From Escherichia phage BME3, in the sequence record PP239276.1: a stretch of DNA of 64,000 nt, one strand, 5' to 3'. A program made the position numbers and the translations under genes. The notes under the pieces are model-generated. The model was not told where the DNA came from and made no database searches. It saw only the letters and a program-made list of their open reading frames with translations. This document shows positions 9,626-15,470 of the stretch, piece after piece. Each line of letters opens with the position of its first letter. The stretch's first letter is position 1.

Positions 9626-9710
9626 ATGGTAGCTAAGGTGAGACTCGAACTCACAATCCCTTGGGGCAATACGTTCTAAGCGTATCGTGTATACCATTCC
9701 ACCACTTAGC
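9626..9710 (-). tRNA. tRNA-Leu (anticodon UAG), type II
   Basis: 85 nt with long variable arm; anticodon arm ATACG/CTTAGAA/CGTAT; T-arm GTGAG/TTCGAGT/CTCAC. Confidence 0.6.
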
Positions 9711-9787
9711 CATAAAAATACACCACTGTAAGAAGCCTCAATGTGCTATTGACAGTTAACCAAGTCTACTCCTTGGATGGTGATATT

Positions 9788-9862
9788 TGGTGCAGAGAGA
9801 TGGTAACGATCCATCCTTTCTACCTTTTCAGGGTAGCACTAATCCGTCTCAGCTATCTCTGC
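9788..9862 (-). tRNA. tRNA-Phe (anticodon GAA)
   Basis: Acceptor GCAGAGA/TCTCTGC, anticodon arm CTACC/CTGAAAA/GGTAG; T-loop ATCGTTA is non-canonical. Confidence 0.5.
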
Positions 9863-9867
9863 AAATT

Positions 9868-9943
9868 TGGTCAGTGCGGCAGGACTCGAACCTGCGACCT
9901 GAAGCGTCCAAGGCTCCCACGCTACCAACTGCGCTACGCACTG
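9868..9943 (-). tRNA. tRNA-Pro (anticodon UGG)
   Basis: Perfect acceptor CAGTGCG/CGCACTG, D-arm GCGC..GCGT, anticodon arm GGAGC/CTTGGAC/GCTTC, T-arm GCAGG/TTCGAGT/CCTGC, CCA encoded. Confidence 0.7.
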
Positions 9944-9950
9944 TAAATCT

Positions 9951-10025
9951 TGGCTGGAGATCTAGGAATCGAACCTAGTCATCACGACTTCAAAGGCCGT
10001 TGCCTTCCCACTAGGCTAATCTCCA
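9951..10025 (-). tRNA. tRNA-Gln (anticodon UUG)
   Basis: Acceptor TGGAGAT/ATCTCCA, anticodon arm ACGGC/CTTTGAA/GTCGT, T-arm CTAGG/TTCGATT/CCTAG. Confidence 0.6.
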
Positions 10026-10124
10026 ATAAAACTAAAAATCACTTAAAAAGAACCGCTAGAGTTTGAAGGAGAAAACCATGAGCGAAAAGAGAAATTTTCT
10101 CTAGCGATTCCATTTAAATAATCT

Positions 10125-10199
10125 TGGAGCGAGTAACAGGACTTGAACCTGCACCTGGAGGGTGGAAACCTCATATGCTACCATTAACACTATACCCGC
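10125..10199 (-). tRNA. tRNA-Gly (anticodon UCC)
   Basis: Acceptor GCGGGTA/TACTCGC, anticodon loop TTTCCAC, T-arm GCAGG/TTCAAGT/CCTGT. Confidence 0.55.
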
Positions 10200-10254
10200 T
10201 TAACAATATTACTCTAACATATTATTAGCCCCTTTGTCAAGAGGCTTTTGATAT

Positions 10255-10584
10255 TTATTTTAAAATAGTAGATGAACCACGTCTGTTTAGATATGCAATA
10301 GTAAAGTCCAAATCACCTATTTCTTCAGGTTCCCACTGACCTTCTAAGCCATAACAAGAACAATGATATGCGTGTACTTCATAAAACAAAGATGTTTTCA
10401 TATCATAAAAATAAACGTGAGATTCACCTTCATAATATGCACAATCATAAGTGGCAGAAAGAATTACAATGTTATCCTTATCTAACTCTACTTCATAATA
10501 TCTTTCAACATCTTCAATATGATCAAAACCATCGAAAACATTGATATTAAAATATTTCTCTAACTCTTTTTCTGTCACATACAC
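10255..10584 (-). CDS. hypothetical protein embedded in tRNA cluster
   Basis: 109-aa ORF with GTG start preceded by AAGGAG RBS; Cys/Tyr/His-rich; no recognisable motif. Confidence 0.5.
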   Translation of the reverse strand: MYVTEKELEKYFNINVFDGFDHIEDVERYYEVELDKDNIVILSATYDCAYYEGESHVYFYDMKTSLFYEVHAYHCSCYGLEGQWEPEEIGDLDFTIAYLNRRGSSTILK

Positions 10585-10601
10585 TCCTTTAGAGTTAAAA
10601 T

Positions 10602-10676
10602 TGGTGCTCCCACAAGGACTCGAACCCTGATAAGTTGCTTACAAGGCAACCGTAATAGCCGTTATACGATAGGAGC
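10602..10676 (-). tRNA. tRNA-Thr (anticodon UGU)
   Basis: Acceptor GCTCCTA/TGGGAGC, anticodon arm GTTGC/CTTGTAA/GCAAC, T-arm CAGGG/TTCGAGT/CCTTG. Confidence 0.65.
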
Positions 10677-10682
10677 AATACT

Positions 10683-10759
10683 TGGACTCGACAGGATTCG
10701 ATACCTGCAATTCCAGAAGCCTCTTGGCGACTGGGGGTTTACCTTAACTCTACAAGTCC
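10683..10759 (-). tRNA. tRNA-like element (non-canonical: 8-nt T-loop, no clear anticodon arm)
   Basis: Acceptor GGACTTG/CGAGTCC and T-stem GCAGG/CCTGT enclose an 8-nt loop TATCGAAT; the interior forms a long hairpin (CCAGTCGCC-AAGA-GGCTTCTGG) rather than D/anticodon arms. Confidence 0.3.
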
Positions 10760-10766
10760 ATAATTC

Positions 10767-10851
10767 TGGCGATGGATCAAGGATTTGAACCTTGCTAGAA
10801 CTTTCGTTCACGGATTAACAGTCCGTCGCCCAACCACTAGGCCAATCCATC
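10767..10851 (-). tRNA. type II (long variable arm) tRNA with GUU (Asn) anticodon; Ser-like body
   Basis: 85 nt; acceptor GATGGAT/ATCCATC, discriminator G, 3-bp D-stem GCC/GGC, anticodon arm ACGGA/CTGTTAA/TCCGT, variable hairpin GAAC-GAAA-GTTC, canonical T-arm CAAGG/TTCAAAT/CCTTG. Confidence 0.5.
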
Positions 10852-10858
10852 TTTAATT

Positions 10859-10945
10859 TGGTGCAGGTAGTTGGACTCGAACCAACGAAGCCCAGAAGGG
10901 CAAGAGATTTACAGTCTCCAGCAATTGCCGCTATGCGATACCTAC
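10859..10945 (-). tRNA. tRNA-Tyr (anticodon GUA), type II
   Basis: 87 nt; acceptor GTAGGTA/TACCTGC, anticodon arm GGAGA/CTGTAAA/TCTCT, long variable arm, T-arm GTTGG/TTCGAGT/CCAAC. Confidence 0.6.
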
Positions 10946-10950
10946 GTGTT

Positions 10951-11026
10951 TGGTACATCGTGAAGGATTCGAACCTTCGACCTTGGAGTTAAAAGCCCCT
11001 TGCTCTACCAACTAAGCTAACGATGT
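10951..11026 (-). tRNA. tRNA-Lys (anticodon UUU)
   Basis: Perfect acceptor ACATCGT/ACGATGT, D-arm GCTT-AGTTGGTA-GAGC, anticodon loop CTTTTAA, T-arm GAAGG/TTCGAAT/CCTTC. Confidence 0.65.
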
Positions 11027-11150
11027 ATAAATTATCTTTAAAATAGCCAGTGTTTGCGGCACTTGACTATGGGATATCGGTAAGATGGTGGGGCCATCTG
11101 CCGAAAGTTTACTCTGTTAAAGTAAGATGACAAGCTACATTAAAGATAAC

Positions 11151-11236
11151 TTGGCGGTAGATGTAGGACTTGAACCTACACGCCGTTTCCGACGACAGTT
11201 TAGCAAACTGTTGTGGCTACCATTTCACCAATCTAC
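11151..11236 (-). tRNA. tRNA-Ser (anticodon GCU), type II
   Basis: 86 nt; acceptor GGTAGAT/ATCTACC, discriminator G, 3-bp D-stem GTG/CAC, anticodon arm ACAGT/TTGCTAA/ACTGT, long variable arm. Confidence 0.65.
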
Positions 11237-11245
11237 CGTTCTTAA

Positions 11246-11446
11246 TTATTCAAAACAACCGGAATCTTTTTGTTCTGCTTTTACCATACGAATATTTTTA
11301 CCATCTTCAGATTGTTGAAGATTAGAATACTCATAAATAACTTTATTATCTACAATCTTAACTCCGGTAACAACCTGTCCAATAGTTTTATAATTCATAA
11401 AGCTCCTAGTTGAATTTGGAGGAAGATAATGGAGTCGAACCATCAC
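11246..11446 (-). CDS. small hypothetical protein
   Basis: Track ORF overlaps tRNA-Ser(UGA) 3' end; AGGAG RBS before internal MNYKTIGQ suggests a ~50-aa product starting near 11398. Confidence 0.3.
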   Translation of the reverse strand: MMVRLHYLPPNSTRSFMNYKTIGQVVTGVKIVDNKVIYEYSNLQQSEDGKNIRMVKAEQKDSGCFE

Positions 11447-11506
11447 CGTATCGCTACAATGGGCCAGGGTTCAAACCTGGTTGCGCACCGCTGCGCCCTA
11501 CCTTCC
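11417..11506 (-). tRNA. tRNA-Ser (anticodon UGA), type II
   Basis: 90 nt; anticodon arm CCAGG/TTTGAAC/CCTGG, long variable arm, T-arm GATGG/TTCGACT/CCATT. Confidence 0.6.
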
Positions 11507-11569
11507 CGTTATCATACTTTAAATCTAACATAAAACTATGTTGCTTGTCAAGTAGTTTTTAAAACTTTT

Positions 11570-11651
11570 TGGCCGGGGTGACAGGATTCGAACCTGCATA
11601 CTCCAATTACTCGGTTAACGCCTGATTAGAAGTCAGGTGAGATACACCCCG
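11570..11651 (-). tRNA. tRNA-like element with Arg-type anticodon arm (UCU); D-arm not resolvable
   Basis: Acceptor CGGGGTG/CACCCCG and canonical T-arm; stem-loop CCTGA/CTTCTAA/TCAGG sits only 7 nt after the acceptor, followed by a 23-nt extra region. Confidence 0.35.
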
Positions 11652-11723
11652 TTTTCACAGTAACTATAACAAAAAACTAAGTAAATGTCAAGATATTTTT
11701 TACTAAATTGCTATTTAAATTGA

Positions 11724-11829
11724 AGCCTAGTTATGGAATCGAACCATATTTCGTATTTAGTTAGACAAAGCGATCTAACATATTTTTCAGGCTTTGATGG
11801 CCTCGGAATTACCAAATACCCTACCAGGC
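11724..11829 (-). tRNA. tRNA-like element (over-long, 8-nt internal loop; possible pseudo-tRNA or structured RNA)
   Basis: Canonical T-arm TATGG/TTCGATT/CCATA and 7-bp acceptor pairing spanning about 106 nt; interior contains hairpin GTTAGA-TCGCTTTG-TCTAAC instead of a canonical anticodon arm. Confidence 0.25.
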
Positions 11830-11831
11830 GT

Positions 11832-11917
11832 TGGTGCAAGTGGAGGGATTCGAACCCTCAATCATTTAAGCGTTGCGTTTTAAGCACAATGTGTATCACC
11901 AATTCCACCACACTTGC
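11832..11917 (-). tRNA. tRNA-Leu (anticodon UAA), type II
   Basis: 86 nt; perfect acceptor GCAAGTG/CACTTGC, anticodon arm TTGTG/CTTAAAA/CGCAA, long variable arm, T-arm GAGGG/TTCGAAT/CCCTC. Confidence 0.6.
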
Positions 11918-11948
11918 ATATAGGAGATGCATAGCACCTCCTTTTAAA

Positions 11949-12024
11949 TGGTGGTTCCCCAGGGTTACAATCCCTGCCCTCGACACTTATGAGGTGTGCG
12001 CTCTCGTCAGTGAGCTATGGAACC
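11949..12024 (-). tRNA. tRNA with CAU anticodon (third CAU species; Met/fMet/Ile2)
   Basis: Acceptor GGTTCCA/GGGAACC, D-arm GCTC..GAGC, anticodon arm CACAC/CTCATAA/GTGTC; T-loop ATTGTAA is non-canonical. Confidence 0.5.
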
Positions 12025-12298: not shown

Positions 12299-12478
12299 AG
12301 TTTTCTCCTTTTTGTTTAACTTGTGCTTATCTTAGCAAATAACTAGCTATGTTGTCAACTAGTTTTTACAATATTTTTTCTTGATCTGTAACCTAGTGTA
12401 TAACCACATACAAAAGATACAATAGCAATAAAAACAGATAAGCCAAAAATAATTTCTGTAGACATACTGTTTCCTTAA

Positions 12479-12771: not shown

Positions 12772-14505
12772 TTAGTCAACCTGGATGGTTCCCATAGTAC
12801 GAAGAACCTCTACGTCAACACGGTTGCGGATATCAGTGAATGTTTCATCACGTCCTTCTACTTGTGGTGTAATAACCTTACCATCTTTGAAGATAACTTG
12901 TAACTCATTGTCTTCATCCTGGATATCTTTAAAAGAAAGATTATCTACAAGAGAAAGATTACCATTAGTATCCTTAACAACCTTAATAAAACCTTTTGCA
13001 GAGCGTTTACCAGGATCAGTTTTAGGCTCCTTACTTACCAAAATTTCGTGTTCACCGATGATGCTACCTGTTGCTTTAACAGCAAAGCCAAAAGTATCTC
13101 GTGTATTGAACTGATAAGTATAACTACCAACACCAAATACAATATTGGAAGCAGCAAAGCCTTTCTTCTTCAGTCGGCGTAAGATTTCGTGTTCTCGTTC
13201 AACAGTAATAGAATCACCATAAATCATACCGATGTGCTGATCAAGAACCTTGTAGCCTTTTCGGTTGATAGTACCGCCAAACACTTCCCAAAGGATTTGA
13301 ATAGAACCTACTGCTTCACAATAAGGAATCTCATAAGTTTCATCAATACAATCAGCAACGCTACAATCCTGAAGAACATTGTAATACTTATTAACATCAG
13401 CCAAATGAACTACTTCAGTGGCTGTCGCAATACCATTATTTAAAAGGTCTTCATAGTTATCAAAAGATTCAACATTGTATCCTGCAACAACTTTAACCGG
13501 ATCTCCTGAATCTGGACGAATAACAAGACGACCATTTCGTGACATAATGGACTCTTTCAATTCTACCAGAATGCGAGTCAAGACAGCCCAGTAATCATAA
13601 GAATCTGCTACATATGAACAAAAACCTTCTGGAACAATTTCTTCAATATAGCGGCGAAGAAACTCTTTCTCTGCTACATAACGAAGCCCATCAACATCAT
13701 CTTTAAGATGTGGGAAATGTTTCTTCAGATCTTCAACAATAGCTCCAATGTTAGTCGTTGCTACTGAATGTTCTGTTGCCGGAATAGAACCTGCAACAAA
13801 TTGATCATAATCAATACCATAATAATCATGCACAGTTTCAATAGCCAGAATATTATCTGTTCCTGTGAAAGATGCCAAATGAGCGATACCACTCTTATAA
13901 CCATCTTCGATATTGCTTAAGCCACGTAGACTAAAATCATGACACTGGAAATTAACGTGATCAATGTTATCACACGTTGCCATCGCATACGCCATAGCGA
14001 TACGCTTATACTGAAAAGCTGCTGTGGCATTAGTCATTGTCTTCCAAGTTTCATCTGACAAGAGTGTTTCAACATAGTTAGTTAACCAAAAGAATTTTTC
14101 TAAAGTGTTATGCACAGTAAACACAGGAACACCAATAGGGCACAAAACACCTTCTGGCAGAGATCGAACTTCTAGCGGAAGATAACCTAAATCGTGCAAT
14201 TCTCCCCAACATTCAGCAGAAGGAGCAGAAGCACCTAATGCATTTTTAGACATACGATAAAATTTATTTACTGCTGCACTACGAGACATTTTAAAGAAGC
14301 TGTCCCACATAGTTACAAGAGCATCAGTAACTGCTCGACGAATACCTAAAACAATAACACCACGTGCTTCACGATCTGCATAATGTGCAAAGTTTTTATC
14401 ATTACGAGGAGTTAAATTAGAGAAAATGAGTTTTGTATTTTGGTTGTACATCTGCTTGTGACCAGGTTTATACCAATCAGTAGCAAAAGGTGCAAAAATA
14501 TTCAT
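12772..14505 (-). CDS. nadV: nicotinamide phosphoribosyltransferase-like protein (NAMPT family; NARP1 Namat-like)
   Basis: 577 aa; NAMPT hallmarks TDWYK, PEGVLCPIGVPVFTVHNT..FWLTNYVET, HDFSLRG, IRPDSGDP. Confidence 0.85.
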   Translation of the reverse strand: MNIFAPFATDWYKPGHKQMYNQNTKLIFSNLTPRNDKNFAHYADREARGVIVLGIRRAVTDALVTMWDSFFKMSRSAAVNKFYRMSKNALGASAPSAECWGELHDLGYLPLEVRSLPEGVLCPIGVPVFTVHNTLEKFFWLTNYVETLLSDETWKTMTNATAAFQYKRIAMAYAMATCDNIDHVNFQCHDFSLRGLSNIEDGYKSGIAHLASFTGTDNILAIETVHDYYGIDYDQFVAGSIPATEHSVATTNIGAIVEDLKKHFPHLKDDVDGLRYVAEKEFLRRYIEEIVPEGFCSYVADSYDYWAVLTRILVELKESIMSRNGRLVIRPDSGDPVKVVAGYNVESFDNYEDLLNNGIATATEVVHLADVNKYYNVLQDCSVADCIDETYEIPYCEAVGSIQILWEVFGGTINRKGYKVLDQHIGMIYGDSITVEREHEILRRLKKKGFAASNIVFGVGSYTYQFNTRDTFGFAVKATGSIIGEHEILVSKEPKTDPGKRSAKGFIKVVKDTNGNLSLVDNLSFKDIQDEDNELQVIFKDGKVITPQVEGRDETFTDIRNRVDVEVLRTMGTIQVD

Positions 14506-14576
14506 AGTTATGTCTCCTTGTTTGTTAGTGTGGGAGTATCTTACTAAGCATACTCCCTATTGTCAACACTTATTAT

Positions 14577-15470
14577 TTAAAAATTCCACACGTATGGAGA
14601 TACAATTTGTTGTTGCAAATCTGACTGATTCTTAACAAGAACACCGGAATCTTCTTGGATGTTATCTTCCCACACATTAAGAGAATGAATGCAGTCAAAG
14701 TGCTCACTTAACTCTTTAAGACCTTTAGAAAAGATACCGTGTGTAACATATAGCTCAATCTTACCTGCGTTACGAGCACGTAGCACTTTAGCCAATTCGA
14801 TAAAAGTTCTACCACCATCACAGATATCATCTACGATCATCAGGTTACGCTTATTGAAATCCTGTACAGAAATGTCTGTACGAACAATAGCACCTGTTGC
14901 AGTATCTCTAACCTTCTCTGCACAGAACACATCTAAAGACATTTTCTTAGATAATTTAAATATTTTCTTAAGAGCACCACCATCAGGACTAACAAGAGCA
15001 AAATTCTCCATACGTAACTTCCACTTTAAAGTTTCGTAAGCAATCTCTTCTTGAGGTATTACATAGAGTCTGTCAAACACTGCTGGAGTAACATCGCTAT
15101 GTGGATCAGCAACGATAACACGTGAGAAATTTAATGAATTAATTATAGAAGCAAATGCTTTAACTCCGAATGCTTCCCCAGGCTCACACACTCTGTCTTG
15201 TCGTGCATACGGTACATACAGCATGAGTAAATCAACACAATATGGTTTATGATATAGCATATTGTCCAATGCATTCTTAGTCATAACCAAAGTCATCAAG
15301 TCTTTAGCAGATCTTACTTCTAAAGAGAGTAAGATTCTGTCTGTAGCATGATTGAAACCTGATAGATTCGTATCTAGTTGAACATGTTGTTCTCCACCAG
15401 AGAATGTAAAGACTTTAACGTCTACATCAGTAACATAACAGTCAACACCATGTAGAATACTAACTTTCAT
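14577..15470 (-). CDS. prs: ribose-phosphate pyrophosphokinase-like protein (PRPP synthetase family; NARP1 Adps-like)
   Basis: 297 aa; Prs motifs PYARQDR, LVSPDGGA, MIVDDICDGGRT; directly upstream of the NAMPT-like gene on the same strand. Confidence 0.85.
   Translation of the reverse strand: MKVSILHGVDCYVTDVDVKVFTFSGGEQHVQLDTNLSGFNHATDRILLSLEVRSAKDLMTLVMTKNALDNMLYHKPYCVDLLMLYVPYARQDRVCEPGEAFGVKAFASIINSLNFSRVIVADPHSDVTPAVFDRLYVIPQEEIAYETLKWKLRMENFALVSPDGGALKKIFKLSKKMSLDVFCAEKVRDTATGAIVRTDISVQDFNKRNLMIVDDICDGGRTFIELAKVLRARNAGKIELYVTHGIFSKGLKELSEHFDCIHSLNVWEDNIQEDSGVLVKNQSDLQQQIVSPYVWNF

What the first reader, a model, noticed from the sequence alone, without database searches (positions are those of the whole stretch)
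10767..10851. Type II (Ser-like) tRNA carrying an Asn GUU anticodon
This 85-nt tRNA has a perfect 7-bp acceptor stem, G73 discriminator, 3-bp D-stem and long variable hairpin (GAAC-GAAA-GTTC), features of bacterial tRNA-Ser. Its perfectly paired anticodon arm ACGGA/CTGTTAA/TCCGT presents GUU. SerRS does not read the anticodon, so this could insert Ser at AAC/AAU codons, or be an Asn isoacceptor with an unusual body. Separate Ser(GCU), Ser(UGA) and Tyr(GUA) type II tRNAs are present, and no canonical tRNA-Asn was found in the cluster.
Basis: partly seen in the sequence, partly recalled or inferred. Interest (0 to 1): 0.5.

Follow-up and report, generated by a model that had tools for sequence, protein, structure and literature searches.

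The report
Phage asparagine tRNA with extra arm
This is a real phage transfer RNA for asparagine that carries an extra small hairpin; that shape occurs in many unrelated phages and was almost absent from the cellular genomes scanned, and it most likely still inserts asparagine, not serine.

Summary
Window 10767..10851 (minus strand) encodes an 85-nt tRNA with anticodon GUU, discriminator G73, an encoded CCA and a 12-nt variable hairpin (GAAC-GAAA-GUUC). ARAGORN and the Rfam tRNA model both call it, in the same anticodon register. The window is a phi92-like E. coli phage.

The same architecture is annotated "tRNA-Asn" in hundreds of phage genomes: phi92-, phAPEC8-, rV5-, T5-, T4- and phiKZ-like. 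It makes up roughly one in ten GUU tRNAs in a sample of viral contigs. It is absent from 5,426 E. coli genomes. A scan for its GAAA-capped form in 185,579 species genomes found it only on 15 uncultured-organism contigs, 13 of them dense tRNA arrays. Compensatory changes support the extra hairpin.

The "Ser-like" reading is weak:
- G2:C71 and A3:U70 are near-universal in co-resident phage tRNA-Ser and are absent here.
- The arm is short, with 3 unpaired 3' bases, which is Tyr-like geometry.
- The D-stem has 4 pairs.
- GUU plus G73 are the known E. coli AsnRS determinants, and half the family has U1-A72, which is rare in the co-resident Ser and Tyr tRNAs.

The best reading is a genuine Asn tRNA with a virus-associated extra arm. 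The arm may shield it from tRNA-cutting host defences; that part is inferred. I found no paper describing this architecture.

The parts
10767..10851 (-). tRNA-Asn(GUU) with an extra variable arm, 85 nt including the encoded CCA (10767..10769) and discriminator G73 (10770)
   Evidence: ARAGORN. Rfam tRNA model 56.5 bits. Cloverleaf minimum-free-energy fold. Covariance model R1 95.7 bits. 100% identical copies in about 50 phi92-like phage records annotated tRNA-Asn.
10817..10819 (-). Anticodon GUU (tRNA positions 34-36) within the loop CUGUUAA
   Evidence: ARAGORN and the Rfam alignment agree on the register. The anticodon arm ACGGA-CUGUUAA-UCCGU matches E. coli tRNA-Asn (GCGGA-CUGUUAA-UCCGU) at 16 of 17 positions; the E. 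coli sequence was verified in 5,425 genomes.
10798..10809 (-). Extra (variable-arm) hairpin GAAC-GAAA-GUUC: 4 bp capped by a GNRA tetraloop
   Evidence: Sequence. Compensatory changes in relatives: AAC/GUU, AGA/UCU, AGU/ACU, UUC/GAA, GGG/CCC. The last three loop bases are conserved: G47, A49 and A50 are invariant in alignment A1 and A48 nearly so. Column 47 read as G is the loop's G only if the tetraloop is GAAA at columns 47-50.
10795..10797 (-). Three unpaired bases (UAG) between the extra hairpin and the T-stem
   Evidence: Sequence. Three or four unpaired 3' bases is the commonest geometry of type II Asn (58 of 94) and of phage tRNA-Tyr (40 of 60). It is uncommon in tRNA-Ser, where 53 of 97 have one.
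10828..10842 (-). D-arm: 4-bp stem GCCU/GGGC (U13-G22 wobble) plus the 7-nt loop AGUGGUU, a class I type
   Evidence: Rfam alignment. The 13:22 position keeps pairing in relatives. The nearest D-arms in the phage tRNA set belong to class I isotypes: edit distance 2 to a His, 3 to class I Asn, 4 to Ser or Tyr, 7 to Leu.
10602..11026 (-). Block Lys(UUU) 10951..11026, Tyr(GUA) 10859..10945, Asn(GUU) 10767..10851, Thr(UGU) 10602..10676
   Evidence: ARAGORN. Lys(UUU), Thr(UGU) and Asn(GUU) are the E. coli tRNAs cut by PARIS AriB (PMC12409363). Tyr is the target of retron-Eco7 PtuAB (PMC11555353). The window Lys and Thr differ from the host at position 39; the Asn does not (with the host site as given).
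11152..11506 (-). Canonical type II tRNA-Ser(GCU) 11152..11237 and tRNA-Ser(UGA) 11417..11506, used for comparison
   Evidence: ARAGORN. Both have G1:C72 and G2:C71, unlike the Asn tRNA.
9147..12024 (-). The whole tRNA gene cluster: 16 ARAGORN calls plus one tRNA-like element, all on the minus strand
   Evidence: Sigma-70-like promoters with TTGACA and an extended -10 lie on the minus strand at 12358, 11691, 11551 and 10240. The cluster sits between the terminase large subunit gene and NAD-salvage-like genes.

Best explanation
This is a functional phage tRNA-Asn. It is transcribed as part of the minus-strand tRNA cluster and carries its own CCA. It is most likely charged with asparagine by the host AsnRS, which reads the anticodon GUU and the discriminator G73. 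It then decodes AAC and AAU, which make up 4.9% of the phage's codons.

The body is essentially a class I tRNA: a 4-bp D-stem, a 7-nt D-loop and a host-like anticodon arm. A 10-12-nt GNRA-capped mini-hairpin sits in the variable loop. That hairpin is kept by selection at the RNA level. This architecture occurs in many unrelated phage families and was essentially confined to viral or virus-like contigs in my scans.

The proposed role has two steps, and both are inferred. First, the phage supplies an Asn decoder of its own for when host tRNA-Asn is depleted by tRNA-cutting defences. Second, the added arm, rather than changes in the anticodon stem, makes the phage copy a poor substrate for such nucleases.

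Shown here: the gene, its fold, its conservation and covariation, its identity elements and its distribution. Inferred: charging by AsnRS, and protection by the arm.
For: Real tRNA with GUU in register.

Asn identity:
- GUU plus G73 is the E. coli AsnRS identity set and can be transplanted into tRNA-Lys (PMC9976931).
- G73 is kept in 93 of 100 unique type II Asn and U1-A72 in 52 of 100. This includes the phiKZ-like and BRkr Pseudomonas phages.
- The anticodon arm matches the E. coli tRNA-Asn arm at 16 of 17 positions.
- It is the only Asn tRNA in the window.
- In T5-like phages it occupies the same Cys-Asn-Asp slot that holds a class I tRNA-Asn in T5 and Bas31.
- Profile HMMs of phage isotypes score class I Asn 27.6 bits against Ser 20.9 and Tyr 11.8. 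With the hairpin deleted the scores are 35.7 and 14.7.

Not Ser-type: the acceptor-stem and arm-geometry statistics, and no special identity to the co-resident Ser tRNAs.

The hairpin is selected.

Virus-associated and widespread:
- 154 and 695 phage records match the two query versions.
- 89 unique sequences came from the first 120 IMG/VR loci.
- About 13 of about 113 GUU tRNAs in a sample not selected for the arm carry it.
- There is no match in 5,426 E. coli genomes.
- Only 15 MAG or uncultured contigs carry it among 185,579 species genomes, and 13 of these are tRNA arrays.

Extra-armed versions of class I isotypes work in vivo:
- Bas33's only Thr(UGU) is an 87-nt extra-armed tRNA with the host-like UAAUCA site intact.
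- Bas33 Thr(UGU) strongly rescues phages from the OLD tRNase (preprint 10.64898/2026.07.10.737580).
- Bas33 needs only T5 tRNA-Lys to escape PARIS (PMC12409363), although PARIS also cuts host Thr(UGU) and Asn(GUU).
- The SP15 type II Asn was expressed in E. coli from a phage tRNA promoter as a control, with no toxicity reported in the passages read (PMC11555353).

Arm versus stem mutation:
- In the window and in T5-like phages, the class I Lys, Thr and Asn carry a changed position 39, while the extra-armed Asn and Thr keep the host sequence.
- Across viral contigs, the E. coli-type UAAUCC occurs in 22 of 98 type II Asn against 7 of 114 class I Asn. UAAUCA occurs in 6 of 11 extra-armed Thr(UGU) against 15 of 73 class I.
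Against: - No charging or cleavage data exist for any type II tRNA-Asn.
- The published PARIS rescue used T5's own tRNA-Asn, which I found to be a 78-nt class I tRNA with a mutated stem. That result does not carry over.
- Class IIb synthetases approach tRNA from the variable-loop side (my own knowledge of the AspRS complex), so an added arm could hinder AsnRS.
- With the anticodon masked, the sequence profile prefers Ser (18.1 bits) to class I Asn (9.9 bits). Local alignment across the masked bases makes this unreliable.
- The window tRNA keeps the exact AriB site U36AAUC|C41, so resistance is not evident from the sequence.
- Class I Thr(UGU) tRNAs from T4 and Bas32 also resist OLD. An arm is therefore not required for resistance.
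- The motif counts are confounded by unknown hosts, by shared ancestry, and by the way the first sample was selected.
Confidence: 0.72

Rival explanations
1. Serine-inserting tRNA. SerRS ignores the anticodon and recognises the long arm plus G73, so the tRNA would place Ser at AAC/AAU, wholly or partly, as nematode nev-tRNAs place Leu at Gly or Ile codons.
For: - It has an extra arm, G73, G1:C72 and the D-stem GCC/GGC.
- Serine identity rests mainly on the arm, not the anticodon (PMC9976931).
- Ser(GCU) tRNAs are among the best non-Asn matches to the family covariance model: 56.1 bits in the window, 58.7 for T5 Ser3, 55.1 in phAPEC8.
- GCU to GUU is one substitution.
- There is precedent in nev-tRNAs (PMC3333845).
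Against: - G2:C71 is absolutely conserved in E. coli tRNA-Ser and present in 91 of 99 phage tRNA-Ser. It is A2:U71 here and unconstrained across the family.
- The arm is 3-4 bp with 3-4 unpaired 3' bases (Tyr-like), where Ser has 4-8 bp and one unpaired base.
- The D-arm is class I.
- Selection holds GUU, G73 and often U1-A72, which SerRS does not need.
- Asn codons are 49 per 1000 in the phage ORFs, so serylation would damage every protein. Even so, the gene is 100% conserved in about 50 genomes.
- The SP15 copy was expressed in E. coli as a control, with no toxicity reported in the passages read.
Confidence: 0.08
2. Genuine Asn tRNA whose arm has no function of its own. The arm would be a leftover of descent from a class II tRNA (Ser(GCU) by C35U, or Tyr(GUA) by A36U plus A73G). 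It stays paired only because an unpaired insert would spoil folding.
For: - Many family members have full class II D-arms. Examples are GCCGAGCGGUUGAAGGC, and CCCGAGUGGUAGCAGGG in phiKZ-like phages, which resembles E. coli tRNA-Tyr.
- The arm geometry is Tyr-like.
- Single-base anticodon shifts link GCU or GUA to GUU.
- Covariation proves pairing, not function.
Against: - The architecture persists across very divergent phage families while being essentially absent from the cellular genomes scanned.
- The window subfamily has a class I D-arm, which looks like a hairpin added to a class I body.
- GNRA loops are strongly preferred: GAAA is nearly invariant in alignment A1, and GUGA, GCAA, GUAA and GAAA appear in the sample not selected for the arm.
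- Similar mini-hairpins appear on Thr(UGU), Cys, Glu, Lys and Met tRNAs, and inside the D-loop of the PVP-SE1 tRNA-Lys. This suggests repeated gain.
Confidence: 0.2
3. The RNA is not mainly a translation substrate. It would act as a decoy or competitive inhibitor that binds a host tRNA nuclease or toxin, or as a handle for a phage-encoded tRNA enzyme.
For: The PARIS authors raise the possibility that some overexpressed viral tRNAs inhibit AriB by competition. The host-like anticodon stem with an intact AriB site would suit a decoy. Conserved GNRA loops are common protein or RNA docking sites (my own knowledge).
Against: - All translation features are kept: a 7-bp acceptor stem, G73-CCA, a canonical T-loop, and U33 and A37.
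- For OLD, a Northern blot showed that a phage Thr tRNA supplements the pool and does not inhibit the nuclease.
- It is the only Asn tRNA of the phage.
Confidence: 0.07
4. The type II and class I difference at this locus reflects conflict at the DNA level with homing endonucleases that cut tRNA genes, not selection on the RNA.
For: In T5 and Bas31, the class I Asn allele comes with an overlapping 519-bp gene annotated as a putative homing endonuclease (T5.069, bas31_0099). The type II allele in Lindwurm, SP15, Bas32 and Bas33 lacks it. HNH and homing endonuclease genes are scattered through these tRNA clusters.
Against: This explains allele replacement in T5-like phages only. It does not explain a paired, covarying hairpin, or its presence in phi92-, rV5-, T4- and phiKZ-like phages where no such gene is adjacent.
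Confidence: 0.05

Closest known systems
E. coli tRNA-Asn(GUU) (asnT/U/V/W)
   Same: Anticodon GUU, G73, and an anticodon arm identical at 16 of 17 positions, including U36AAUCC41. It presumably uses the same synthetase and the same Q34 and t6A37 modification signals; that last point is my own knowledge.
   Different: The host tRNA is class I: 76 nt, a 5-nt variable loop and U1-A72. The phage tRNA has a 15-nt variable region with a hairpin and G1-C72, and blastn finds no match in any E. coli genome.
Phage T5 tRNA-Asn(GUU), used with T5 tRNA-Lys and tRNA-Thr to neutralise PARIS (Belukhina et al. 2025, PMC12409363)
   Same: A phage-encoded Asn(GUU) decoder in a tRNA cluster, at the same Cys-Asn-Asp slot as the type II form in other T5-like phages.
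   Different: The T5 copy is class I (78 nt), has a changed anticodon stem (U36AAGUU41) and sits beside a homing-endonuclease-like gene. The window tRNA keeps the host stem and adds an arm. The experimental rescue data exist only for the T5 class I form.
Bacterial and phage tRNA-Ser(GCU), and bacterial tRNA-Tyr(GUA) (class II tRNAs)
   Same: An extra arm. It shares G73 and G1:C72 with Ser. It shares the short arm, with 3 unpaired 3' bases and G34-U35, with Tyr. Each is one anticodon substitution away.
   Different: It lacks the G2:C71 and A3:U70 of Ser and the A73 of Tyr. It has a 4-bp D-stem with a 7-nt loop, not 3 bp with a 10-11-nt loop.
Nematode nev-tRNAs (Hamashima et al. 2012, PMC3333845) and bacterial allo-tRNAs (Mukai et al. 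2017)
   Same: tRNAs with an extra arm whose anticodon belongs to a class I isotype.
   Different: Those keep the identity set of the class II synthetase (Leu, or Ser/Ala) and are charged against their anticodon. Here the class II determinants are eroded, and the anticodon-reading AsnRS determinants are the conserved ones.
Phage tRNAs that escape anticodon nucleases through anticodon-loop or stem substitutions (van den Berg et al. 2023, PMC10264068; Burman et al. 2024)
   Same: The same biological setting: a phage copy of a tRNA that host defences deplete.
   Different: The described escape route is base substitution near the cut site. Here the loop and stem are host-like and the difference is an added structural arm. 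The papers I read on this topic (PMC10264068, PMC12409363 and the OLD preprint) never use the word 'variable'.

Membership tests
tRNA (Rfam RF00005) | Cloverleaf scoring above the family gathering score | tested here: met
   56.5 bits against a gathering score of 29. ARAGORN calls it. The minimum-free-energy fold is the cloverleaf.
tRNA-Asn (substrate of bacterial AsnRS) | Anticodon G34 U35 U36 in a 7-nt loop | tested here: met
   The loop is CUGUUAA. Two independent tools give the same register.
tRNA-Asn (substrate of bacterial AsnRS) | Discriminator G73 | tested here: met
   G at 10770. G73 is present in 93 of 100 family members. Its identity role is described in PMC9976931.
tRNA-Asn (substrate of bacterial AsnRS) | Class I body with a 4-5-nt variable loop | tested here: not met
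   The variable region is 15 nt and contains a 4-bp hairpin. The D-arm, however, is class I.
tRNA-Asn (substrate of bacterial AsnRS) | U1-A72, found in bacterial tRNA-Asn and required by GatCAB | tested here: not met
   The window tRNA has G1-C72. U1-A72 is present in 52 of 100 family members, including the Pseudomonas phages. It is not among the reported E. coli AsnRS determinants.
tRNA-Asn (substrate of bacterial AsnRS) | Actually charged with asparagine | not testable with these tools
   This needs aminoacylation assays or charged-tRNA sequencing.
Bacterial tRNA-Ser (substrate of SerRS) | Long variable arm of Ser type: stem of 4-8 bp with about 1 unpaired base on each side | tested here: not met
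   The window has a 4-bp stem with 0-1 unpaired 5' bases and 3 unpaired 3' bases. Of the family, 58 of 94 have 3-4 unpaired 3' bases. Of phage Ser tRNAs, 53 of 97 have 1.
Bacterial tRNA-Ser (substrate of SerRS) | G1:C72 and G2:C71 (and usually A3:U70) in the acceptor stem | tested here: not met
   The window has G1:C72, A2:U71 and U3:A70. Phage Ser tRNAs have G2:C71 in 91 of 99; type II Asn have it in 39 of 100. Conservation in E. coli is stated in PMC9976931.
Bacterial tRNA-Ser (substrate of SerRS) | G73 | tested here: met
   G73 is shared with tRNA-Asn, so it does not discriminate between the two.
Bacterial tRNA-Ser (substrate of SerRS) | Class II D-arm: 3-bp stem and a long loop | tested here: not met
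   The D-arm is 4 bp plus a 7-nt loop, and 13:22 keeps pairing.
Bacterial tRNA-Tyr | A73 and anticodon GUA | tested here: not met
   The window tRNA has G73 and GUU. All 71 phage Tyr tRNAs have A73.
Mistranslating extra-arm tRNAs (nev-tRNA / allo-tRNA type) | Extra arm combined with an anticodon of a class I isotype | tested here: met
Mistranslating extra-arm tRNAs (nev-tRNA / allo-tRNA type) | Retains the identity set of a class II-tRNA synthetase and is charged against its anticodon | tested here: inconclusive
   The sequence determinants of Ser, Tyr and Leu are incomplete. Charging itself cannot be tested here.
Nuclease-resistant phage replacement tRNAs (anti-PARIS / PrrC / retron type) | Phage-encoded copy of a host tRNA that a defence nuclease cuts | tested here: met
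   E. coli tRNA-Asn(GUU) is an AriB target (PMC12409363). The window tRNA sits next to Lys(UUU), Thr(UGU) and Tyr(GUA).
Nuclease-resistant phage replacement tRNAs (anti-PARIS / PrrC / retron type) | Substitutions at or near the cleavage site | tested here: not met
   U36AAUC|C41 is identical to the host sequence (with the site as given). Only position 27 differs within the arm.
Nuclease-resistant phage replacement tRNAs (anti-PARIS / PrrC / retron type) | Demonstrated resistance to cleavage and rescue of infection | not testable with these tools
   Only indirect evidence exists. Bas33, which carries a type II Asn and an extra-armed Thr, needs only tRNA-Lys to escape PARIS.

The most novel reading that the evidence does not exclude
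Extra-armed versions of normally class I tRNAs would be a virus-specific adaptation that has spread widely among phages. The set includes Asn above all, and also Thr(UGU), Cys, Glu, Lys and Met. A GNRA-capped mini-hairpin inserted in the variable loop, or in the D-loop, would let a phage tRNA keep a host-like anticodon arm. That arm preserves charging, modification and decoding. At the same time the tRNA would become a poor substrate for the host's tRNA-cutting immune nucleases such as PARIS AriB and OLD-family enzymes. This would be a second, architectural route of immune evasion, beside the known route of anticodon-loop and stem mutations.
Probability: 0.3. Interest if true: 0.75.

Novelty: new variant of a known kind. 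Interest (0 to 1): 0.5.

Why it matters
The long variable arm is usually taught as the mark of tRNA-Leu, tRNA-Ser, bacterial tRNA-Tyr and tRNA-Sec. A tRNA-Asn with such an arm, common in well-studied phages (T5-like, T4-like, phiKZ-like, phi92-like) and nearly absent from cells, has three consequences:
1. Annotation by anticodon alone hides a distinct class of viral tRNA.
2. AsnRS, a class IIb enzyme, must tolerate an added arm. That is a testable point of synthetase-tRNA recognition.
3. If the arm protects against tRNA-cutting defences, it would explain how phage tRNAs with host-identical cleavage sites can still rescue infection. It would also give a simple design rule for nuclease-resistant tRNAs.

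If the minority reading were true and the tRNA inserted serine at Asn codons, it would be a virus-driven recoding of 5% of all codons. The evidence here speaks against that.

Tried and rejected
1. Transferring the published PARIS rescue result to this tRNA. Rejected: T5's own tRNA-Asn is a 78-nt class I tRNA.

2. Using Bas34's PARIS sensitivity as evidence that a type II Asn is cleaved. Rejected: the Bas34 copy has three mismatches in the acceptor stem and ARAGORN does not call it.

3. Using Bas32's OLD-resistant Thr(UGU) as an example of an extra-armed tRNA. Rejected: it is class I. Only the Bas33 Thr has the arm.

4. Stand-in for isotype-specific models, using profile HMMs built from ARAGORN-labelled phage tRNAs. 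The result favours class I Asn over Ser only when the anticodon is present, and reverses when it is masked. I treat this as inconclusive.

5. Nearest-neighbour comparison of D-arms to find the ancestor. The result is heterogeneous across the 79 arms, counted as fractional votes: Ser 12.6, Tyr 7.6, Cys 7.5, class I Asn 6.8. No single origin emerges.

6. Pairwise identity to the co-resident tRNAs. All fall between 58% and 67%, with Lys and Gln highest. There is no sign of a recent duplication of Ser or Tyr.

7. Cellular genome scan. Of the 52 pattern matches, 37 carried no type II tRNA-Asn; most were not tRNAs at all.

8. Literature. One search served to map BASEL phage names. None of the papers listed describes a phage tRNA-Asn with a long arm. 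Older subscription-journal papers on T5 tRNA sequencing are outside the searchable library, so prior description cannot be excluded.

9. A guessed accession, NC_105120, for Bas32 failed.

10. Pfam scan of neighbouring ORFs for a phage synthetase or amidotransferase. Nothing relevant was found.
Full report
**1. What is there**

Window 10767..10851, minus strand, encodes an 85-nt tRNA. ARAGORN calls it tRNA-Asn(gtt). The Rfam tRNA covariance model scores it 56.5 bits against a gathering score of 29, with E = 1.2e-10. Its alignment places ACGGA-CUGUUAA-UCCGU as the anticodon arm, so the worry about a different loop register is settled.

The RNA reads GAUGGAU UG GCCU AGUGGUU GGGC G ACGGA CUGUUAA UCCGU GAACGAAAGUUC UAG CAAGG UUCAAAU CCUUG AUCCAUC G CCA. 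The minimum-free-energy fold is the cloverleaf with a fourth hairpin in the variable region (-29.5 kcal/mol, z = -2.57).

The gene lies in a cluster of 16 tRNA genes on the minus strand, 9147..12024. The cluster includes Ser(GCU), Ser(UGA), Tyr(GUA) and two Leu, all of class II. There is no other Asn tRNA in the 64-kb window.

One correction is needed. The D-stem is 4 bp, with U13-G22 as the fourth pair, and the loop is 7 nt. It is not a 3-bp class II stem.

**2. Where the window comes from, and how widespread the tRNA is**

The region is 99% identical to phage ECGD1 and 93-99% identical to many phi92-like (Justusliebigvirus, Stephanstirmvirinae) E. coli phages.

The 85-nt tRNA is 100% identical in about 50 phage records. 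It is 92% identical in Klebsiella relatives, about 84% in PVP-SE1 (rV5-like) and about 75% in phAPEC8-like phages. Wherever tRNAs are annotated, it is called tRNA-Asn.

T5-like phages carry 82-86-nt versions: Lindwurm, Stubb, PSTCR5, SP15, Bas32 and Bas33. The T5-like version matches 695 phage records. These include T4-like phages (CC31, Klebsiella 167-kb phages, Serratia CHI14) and Pseudomonas jumbo phages. phiKZ-like fMGyn-Pae01 and BRkr have 84-87-nt forms.

I scanned IMG/VR for GUU followed by a GAAA-capped arm.

A second scan did not require an arm. In it, about 13 of about 113 GUU tRNAs had one, roughly one in ten. Almost all of these lay in loci with several tRNAs.

Cells look different. 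blastn finds nothing in 5,426 complete E. coli genomes. The arm-specific pattern found true type II Asn on only 15 contigs among one genome from each of 185,579 species. All 15 come from metagenome bins or uncultured organisms, and 13 of them carry 4-21 tRNAs within 8 kb, which is the look of phage tRNA arrays. That scan covers only GAAA-capped arms.

**3. The extra hairpin is selected**

I aligned eleven equal-length relatives, from enterobacterial phages and from metagenomic contigs. Across them, 98% of cells form standard pairs and 19 of 25 pairs show changes on both sides. None of 500 shuffles reaches the observed covariation score of 0.876, and the signal collapses when partners are slid by one to three columns.

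In the variable hairpin, 3 of 4 pairs change on both sides: AU, UA and GC at the second pair, and GC, CG, UA and AU at the third. The tetraloop is almost invariant GAAA in that alignment. In the sample not selected for an arm, the loops include GUGA, GCAA, GUAA and GAAA.

The common layout is one base, a 3-4-bp stem, a GNRA loop, then 3-4 unpaired bases. In effect this is a normal 5-nt variable loop with an 8-10-nt hairpin set into it.

**4. Ser or Asn?**

I compared unique phage tRNAs taken from the same loci.

| Feature | tRNA-Ser (99) | tRNA-Tyr (71) | Type II Asn (100) |
|---|---|---|---|
| 1:72 | G:C in 91 | G:C in 64 | U:A 52, G:C 48 |
| 2:71 | G:C in 91 | G:C in 48 | G:C 39, C:G 37, U:A 13, A:U 6 |
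| 3:70 | A:U in 85 | G:C in 45 | all four pairs about equal |
| Position 73 | G 75, U 18, A 6 | A in all 71 | G in 93 |
| Arm stem | 4-8 bp | mostly 3 bp | 3-4 bp |
| Unpaired 3' bases | 1 in 53 of 97 | 3 in 36 of 60 | 3-4 in 58 of 94 |

The window tRNA has A2:U71 and U3:A70, and 3 unpaired 3' bases.

[quoted passage not shown] E. coli Asn identity is the anticodon plus G73, and it can be transplanted into tRNA-Lys.

U1-A72 is present in E. coli tRNA-Asn. It is the element that the amidotransferase needs in organisms making Asn-tRNA indirectly. Finding it in the Pseudomonas phage copies fits an Asn identity. P. aeruginosa uses that indirect route, which I state from my own knowledge.

The anticodon arm of the window tRNA matches the verified E. 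coli tRNA-Asn arm at 16 of 17 positions.

In T5-like phages, the type II gene sits in the Cys-Asn-Asp slot. T5 and Bas31 hold a class I tRNA-Asn in the same slot.

Rough stand-ins for isotype models give mild support. Profile HMMs built from phage tRNAs score class I Asn 27.6 bits, Ser 20.9 and Tyr 11.8. With the hairpin deleted the scores are 35.7 and 14.7. The order reverses when the anticodon is masked.

A covariance model of the family scores members 65-97 bits. The next best are Gln (57), Ser(GCU) (55-59) and Tyr (47-57). T5's class I Asn scores only 40. So the body is not a close copy of any other isotype, and an origin from Ser(GCU) by a C35U change remains possible.

Asn codons make up 49 per 1000 in the phage ORFs. 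Reading them as Ser would be very costly.

**5. What the literature adds**

[quoted passage not shown] Co-expressing the three T5 counterparts neutralises PARIS (PMC12409363). I checked T5 itself. Its tRNA-Asn is class I with a changed stem, so this experiment says nothing directly about the type II form.

Bas34's copy is broken, so Bas34 is not informative either.

Bas33 is more useful. Its only Thr(UGU) is an 87-nt extra-armed tRNA with the host-like site UAAUCA intact, and its Asn is type II.
- Bas33 Thr(UGU) gives strong rescue from the OLD tRNase (preprint 10.64898/2026.07.10.737580).
- Bas33 needs only T5 tRNA-Lys to escape PARIS.

Extra-armed versions of class I isotypes therefore work as replacement tRNAs in E. 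coli. They appear to survive nucleases that cut the host copy despite an unchanged cleavage-site sequence. Class I Thr tRNAs from T4 and Bas32 also resist OLD, so the arm is not necessary for resistance.

The SP15 type II Asn was cloned and expressed from a phage tRNA promoter in E. coli as a negative control for PrrC. No toxicity is reported in the passages I read (PMC11555353).

**6. A pattern that suggests what the arm is for**

In this window, the class I Lys and Thr differ from the host at position 39, the base whose mutation abolishes AriB cleavage of tRNA-Lys. The extra-armed Asn keeps U39-C40-C41.

T5-like phages show the same split. Class I Thr, Asn and Lys have position 39 changed, while extra-armed Thr and Asn keep it.

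Across viral contigs, the E. coli-type UAAUCC motif occurs in 22 of 98 type II Asn against 7 of 114 class I Asn. UAAUCA occurs in 6 of 11 extra-armed Thr(UGU) against 15 of 73 class I.

These counts are confounded by unknown hosts, shared ancestry and the selection of the first sample. They are a lead and not a test.

The hairpin leaves the tRNA core three to four nucleotides 3' of the AriB cut site on the same strand. This follows from the sequence. Whether it clashes with the enzyme is not known.

**7. Verdict**

The feature is real, conserved and unusual in shape. It is most likely a genuine asparagine tRNA (confidence about 0.7) and not a serine-inserting one (about 0.08).

The gene itself is known and annotated. 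In ten literature searches I found no description of the extra arm on tRNA-Asn, of its near-restriction to viruses, or of its possible link to tRNA-targeting immunity. I therefore rate it a new variant of a known kind, of moderate interest, with clear experiments available.

Noticed in passing
window 11573..11651 (-): A tRNA-like RNA without a D-arm. It has a 7-bp acceptor stem, a 7-nt linker, an anticodon arm with loop CUUCUAA (UCU, Arg), an extra hairpin CCGA-GUAA-UUGG, a normal T-arm and no encoded CCA. The Rfam tRNA model scores it 38.6 bits, but ARAGORN does not call it. A near-consensus promoter lies just upstream at 11691..11663. The element is 82-86% conserved in 258 phage records of many families (Felix O1, Klebsiella phages, T5-like, jumbo phages, a Streptomyces phage) and is almost never annotated.
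   Followed up: partly
L300 12001-12087 (Bas33 Thr); L015; L001 2286-2374 (Glu, 89 nt); other loci listed: Other normally class I isotypes in phage tRNA clusters also carry GNRA-capped extra arms: Thr(UGU), Cys(GCA), Glu(UUC), Lys, Met, Ile and Trp. In phages that have a type II Asn, 10 of 41 Thr(UGU) and 5 of 27 Cys(GCA) are long. In the sample not selected for an arm, the figures are 2 of 43 and 2 of 22.
   Followed up: partly
L002 1348-1433 (Salmonella phage PVP-SE1): The gene annotated tRNA-Lys is 86 nt because a GCAA-capped mini-hairpin sits inside its D-loop. The anticodon arm (UCCGA-CUUUUAA-UCGGA) keeps U39-C40. ARAGORN mis-reads it as having a 4-base anticodon. The D-loop is where the second AriB subunit is modelled to bind.
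   Followed up: partly
L295 8953-9525 (T5); L301 7767-8339 (Bas31); compare L004, L299, L300, L303: In T5-like phages the Asn slot has two alleles. One is a class I tRNA-Asn overlapped by a 519-bp gene annotated as a putative homing endonuclease (T5.069, bas31_0099). The other is the type II tRNA-Asn without that gene. This looks like endonuclease-driven allele replacement.
   Followed up: no
L296 601-683 (phage SelmaRatti = Bas34): The annotated tRNA-Asn is a type II copy whose 3' acceptor strand no longer pairs (three mismatches), and ARAGORN does not call it. It is probably a pseudogene at a deletion junction. This may explain why Bas34 needed T5 tRNA-Asn in the PARIS study.
   Followed up: yes
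window 12772..15470 (-): Directly beside the tRNA cluster lie a gene of the NAPRTase/Nampt family (577 aa) and a gene resembling PRPP synthetase (297 aa). Together they form an NAD-salvage pair of the kind phages use against NAD-depleting defences. The terminase large subunit gene lies on the other side at 5262..7346.
   Followed up: no
L295 (GenBank record NC_005859, phage T5): The T5 record carries experimental notes for each tRNA on whether a change of anticodon turns it into an amber suppressor. Ser1, Ser3, Tyr and Leu1 are listed as convertible; Asn, Asp, Cys and Thr are not. This is a ready-made assay design for testing whether SerRS recognises the type II Asn body.
   Followed up: no
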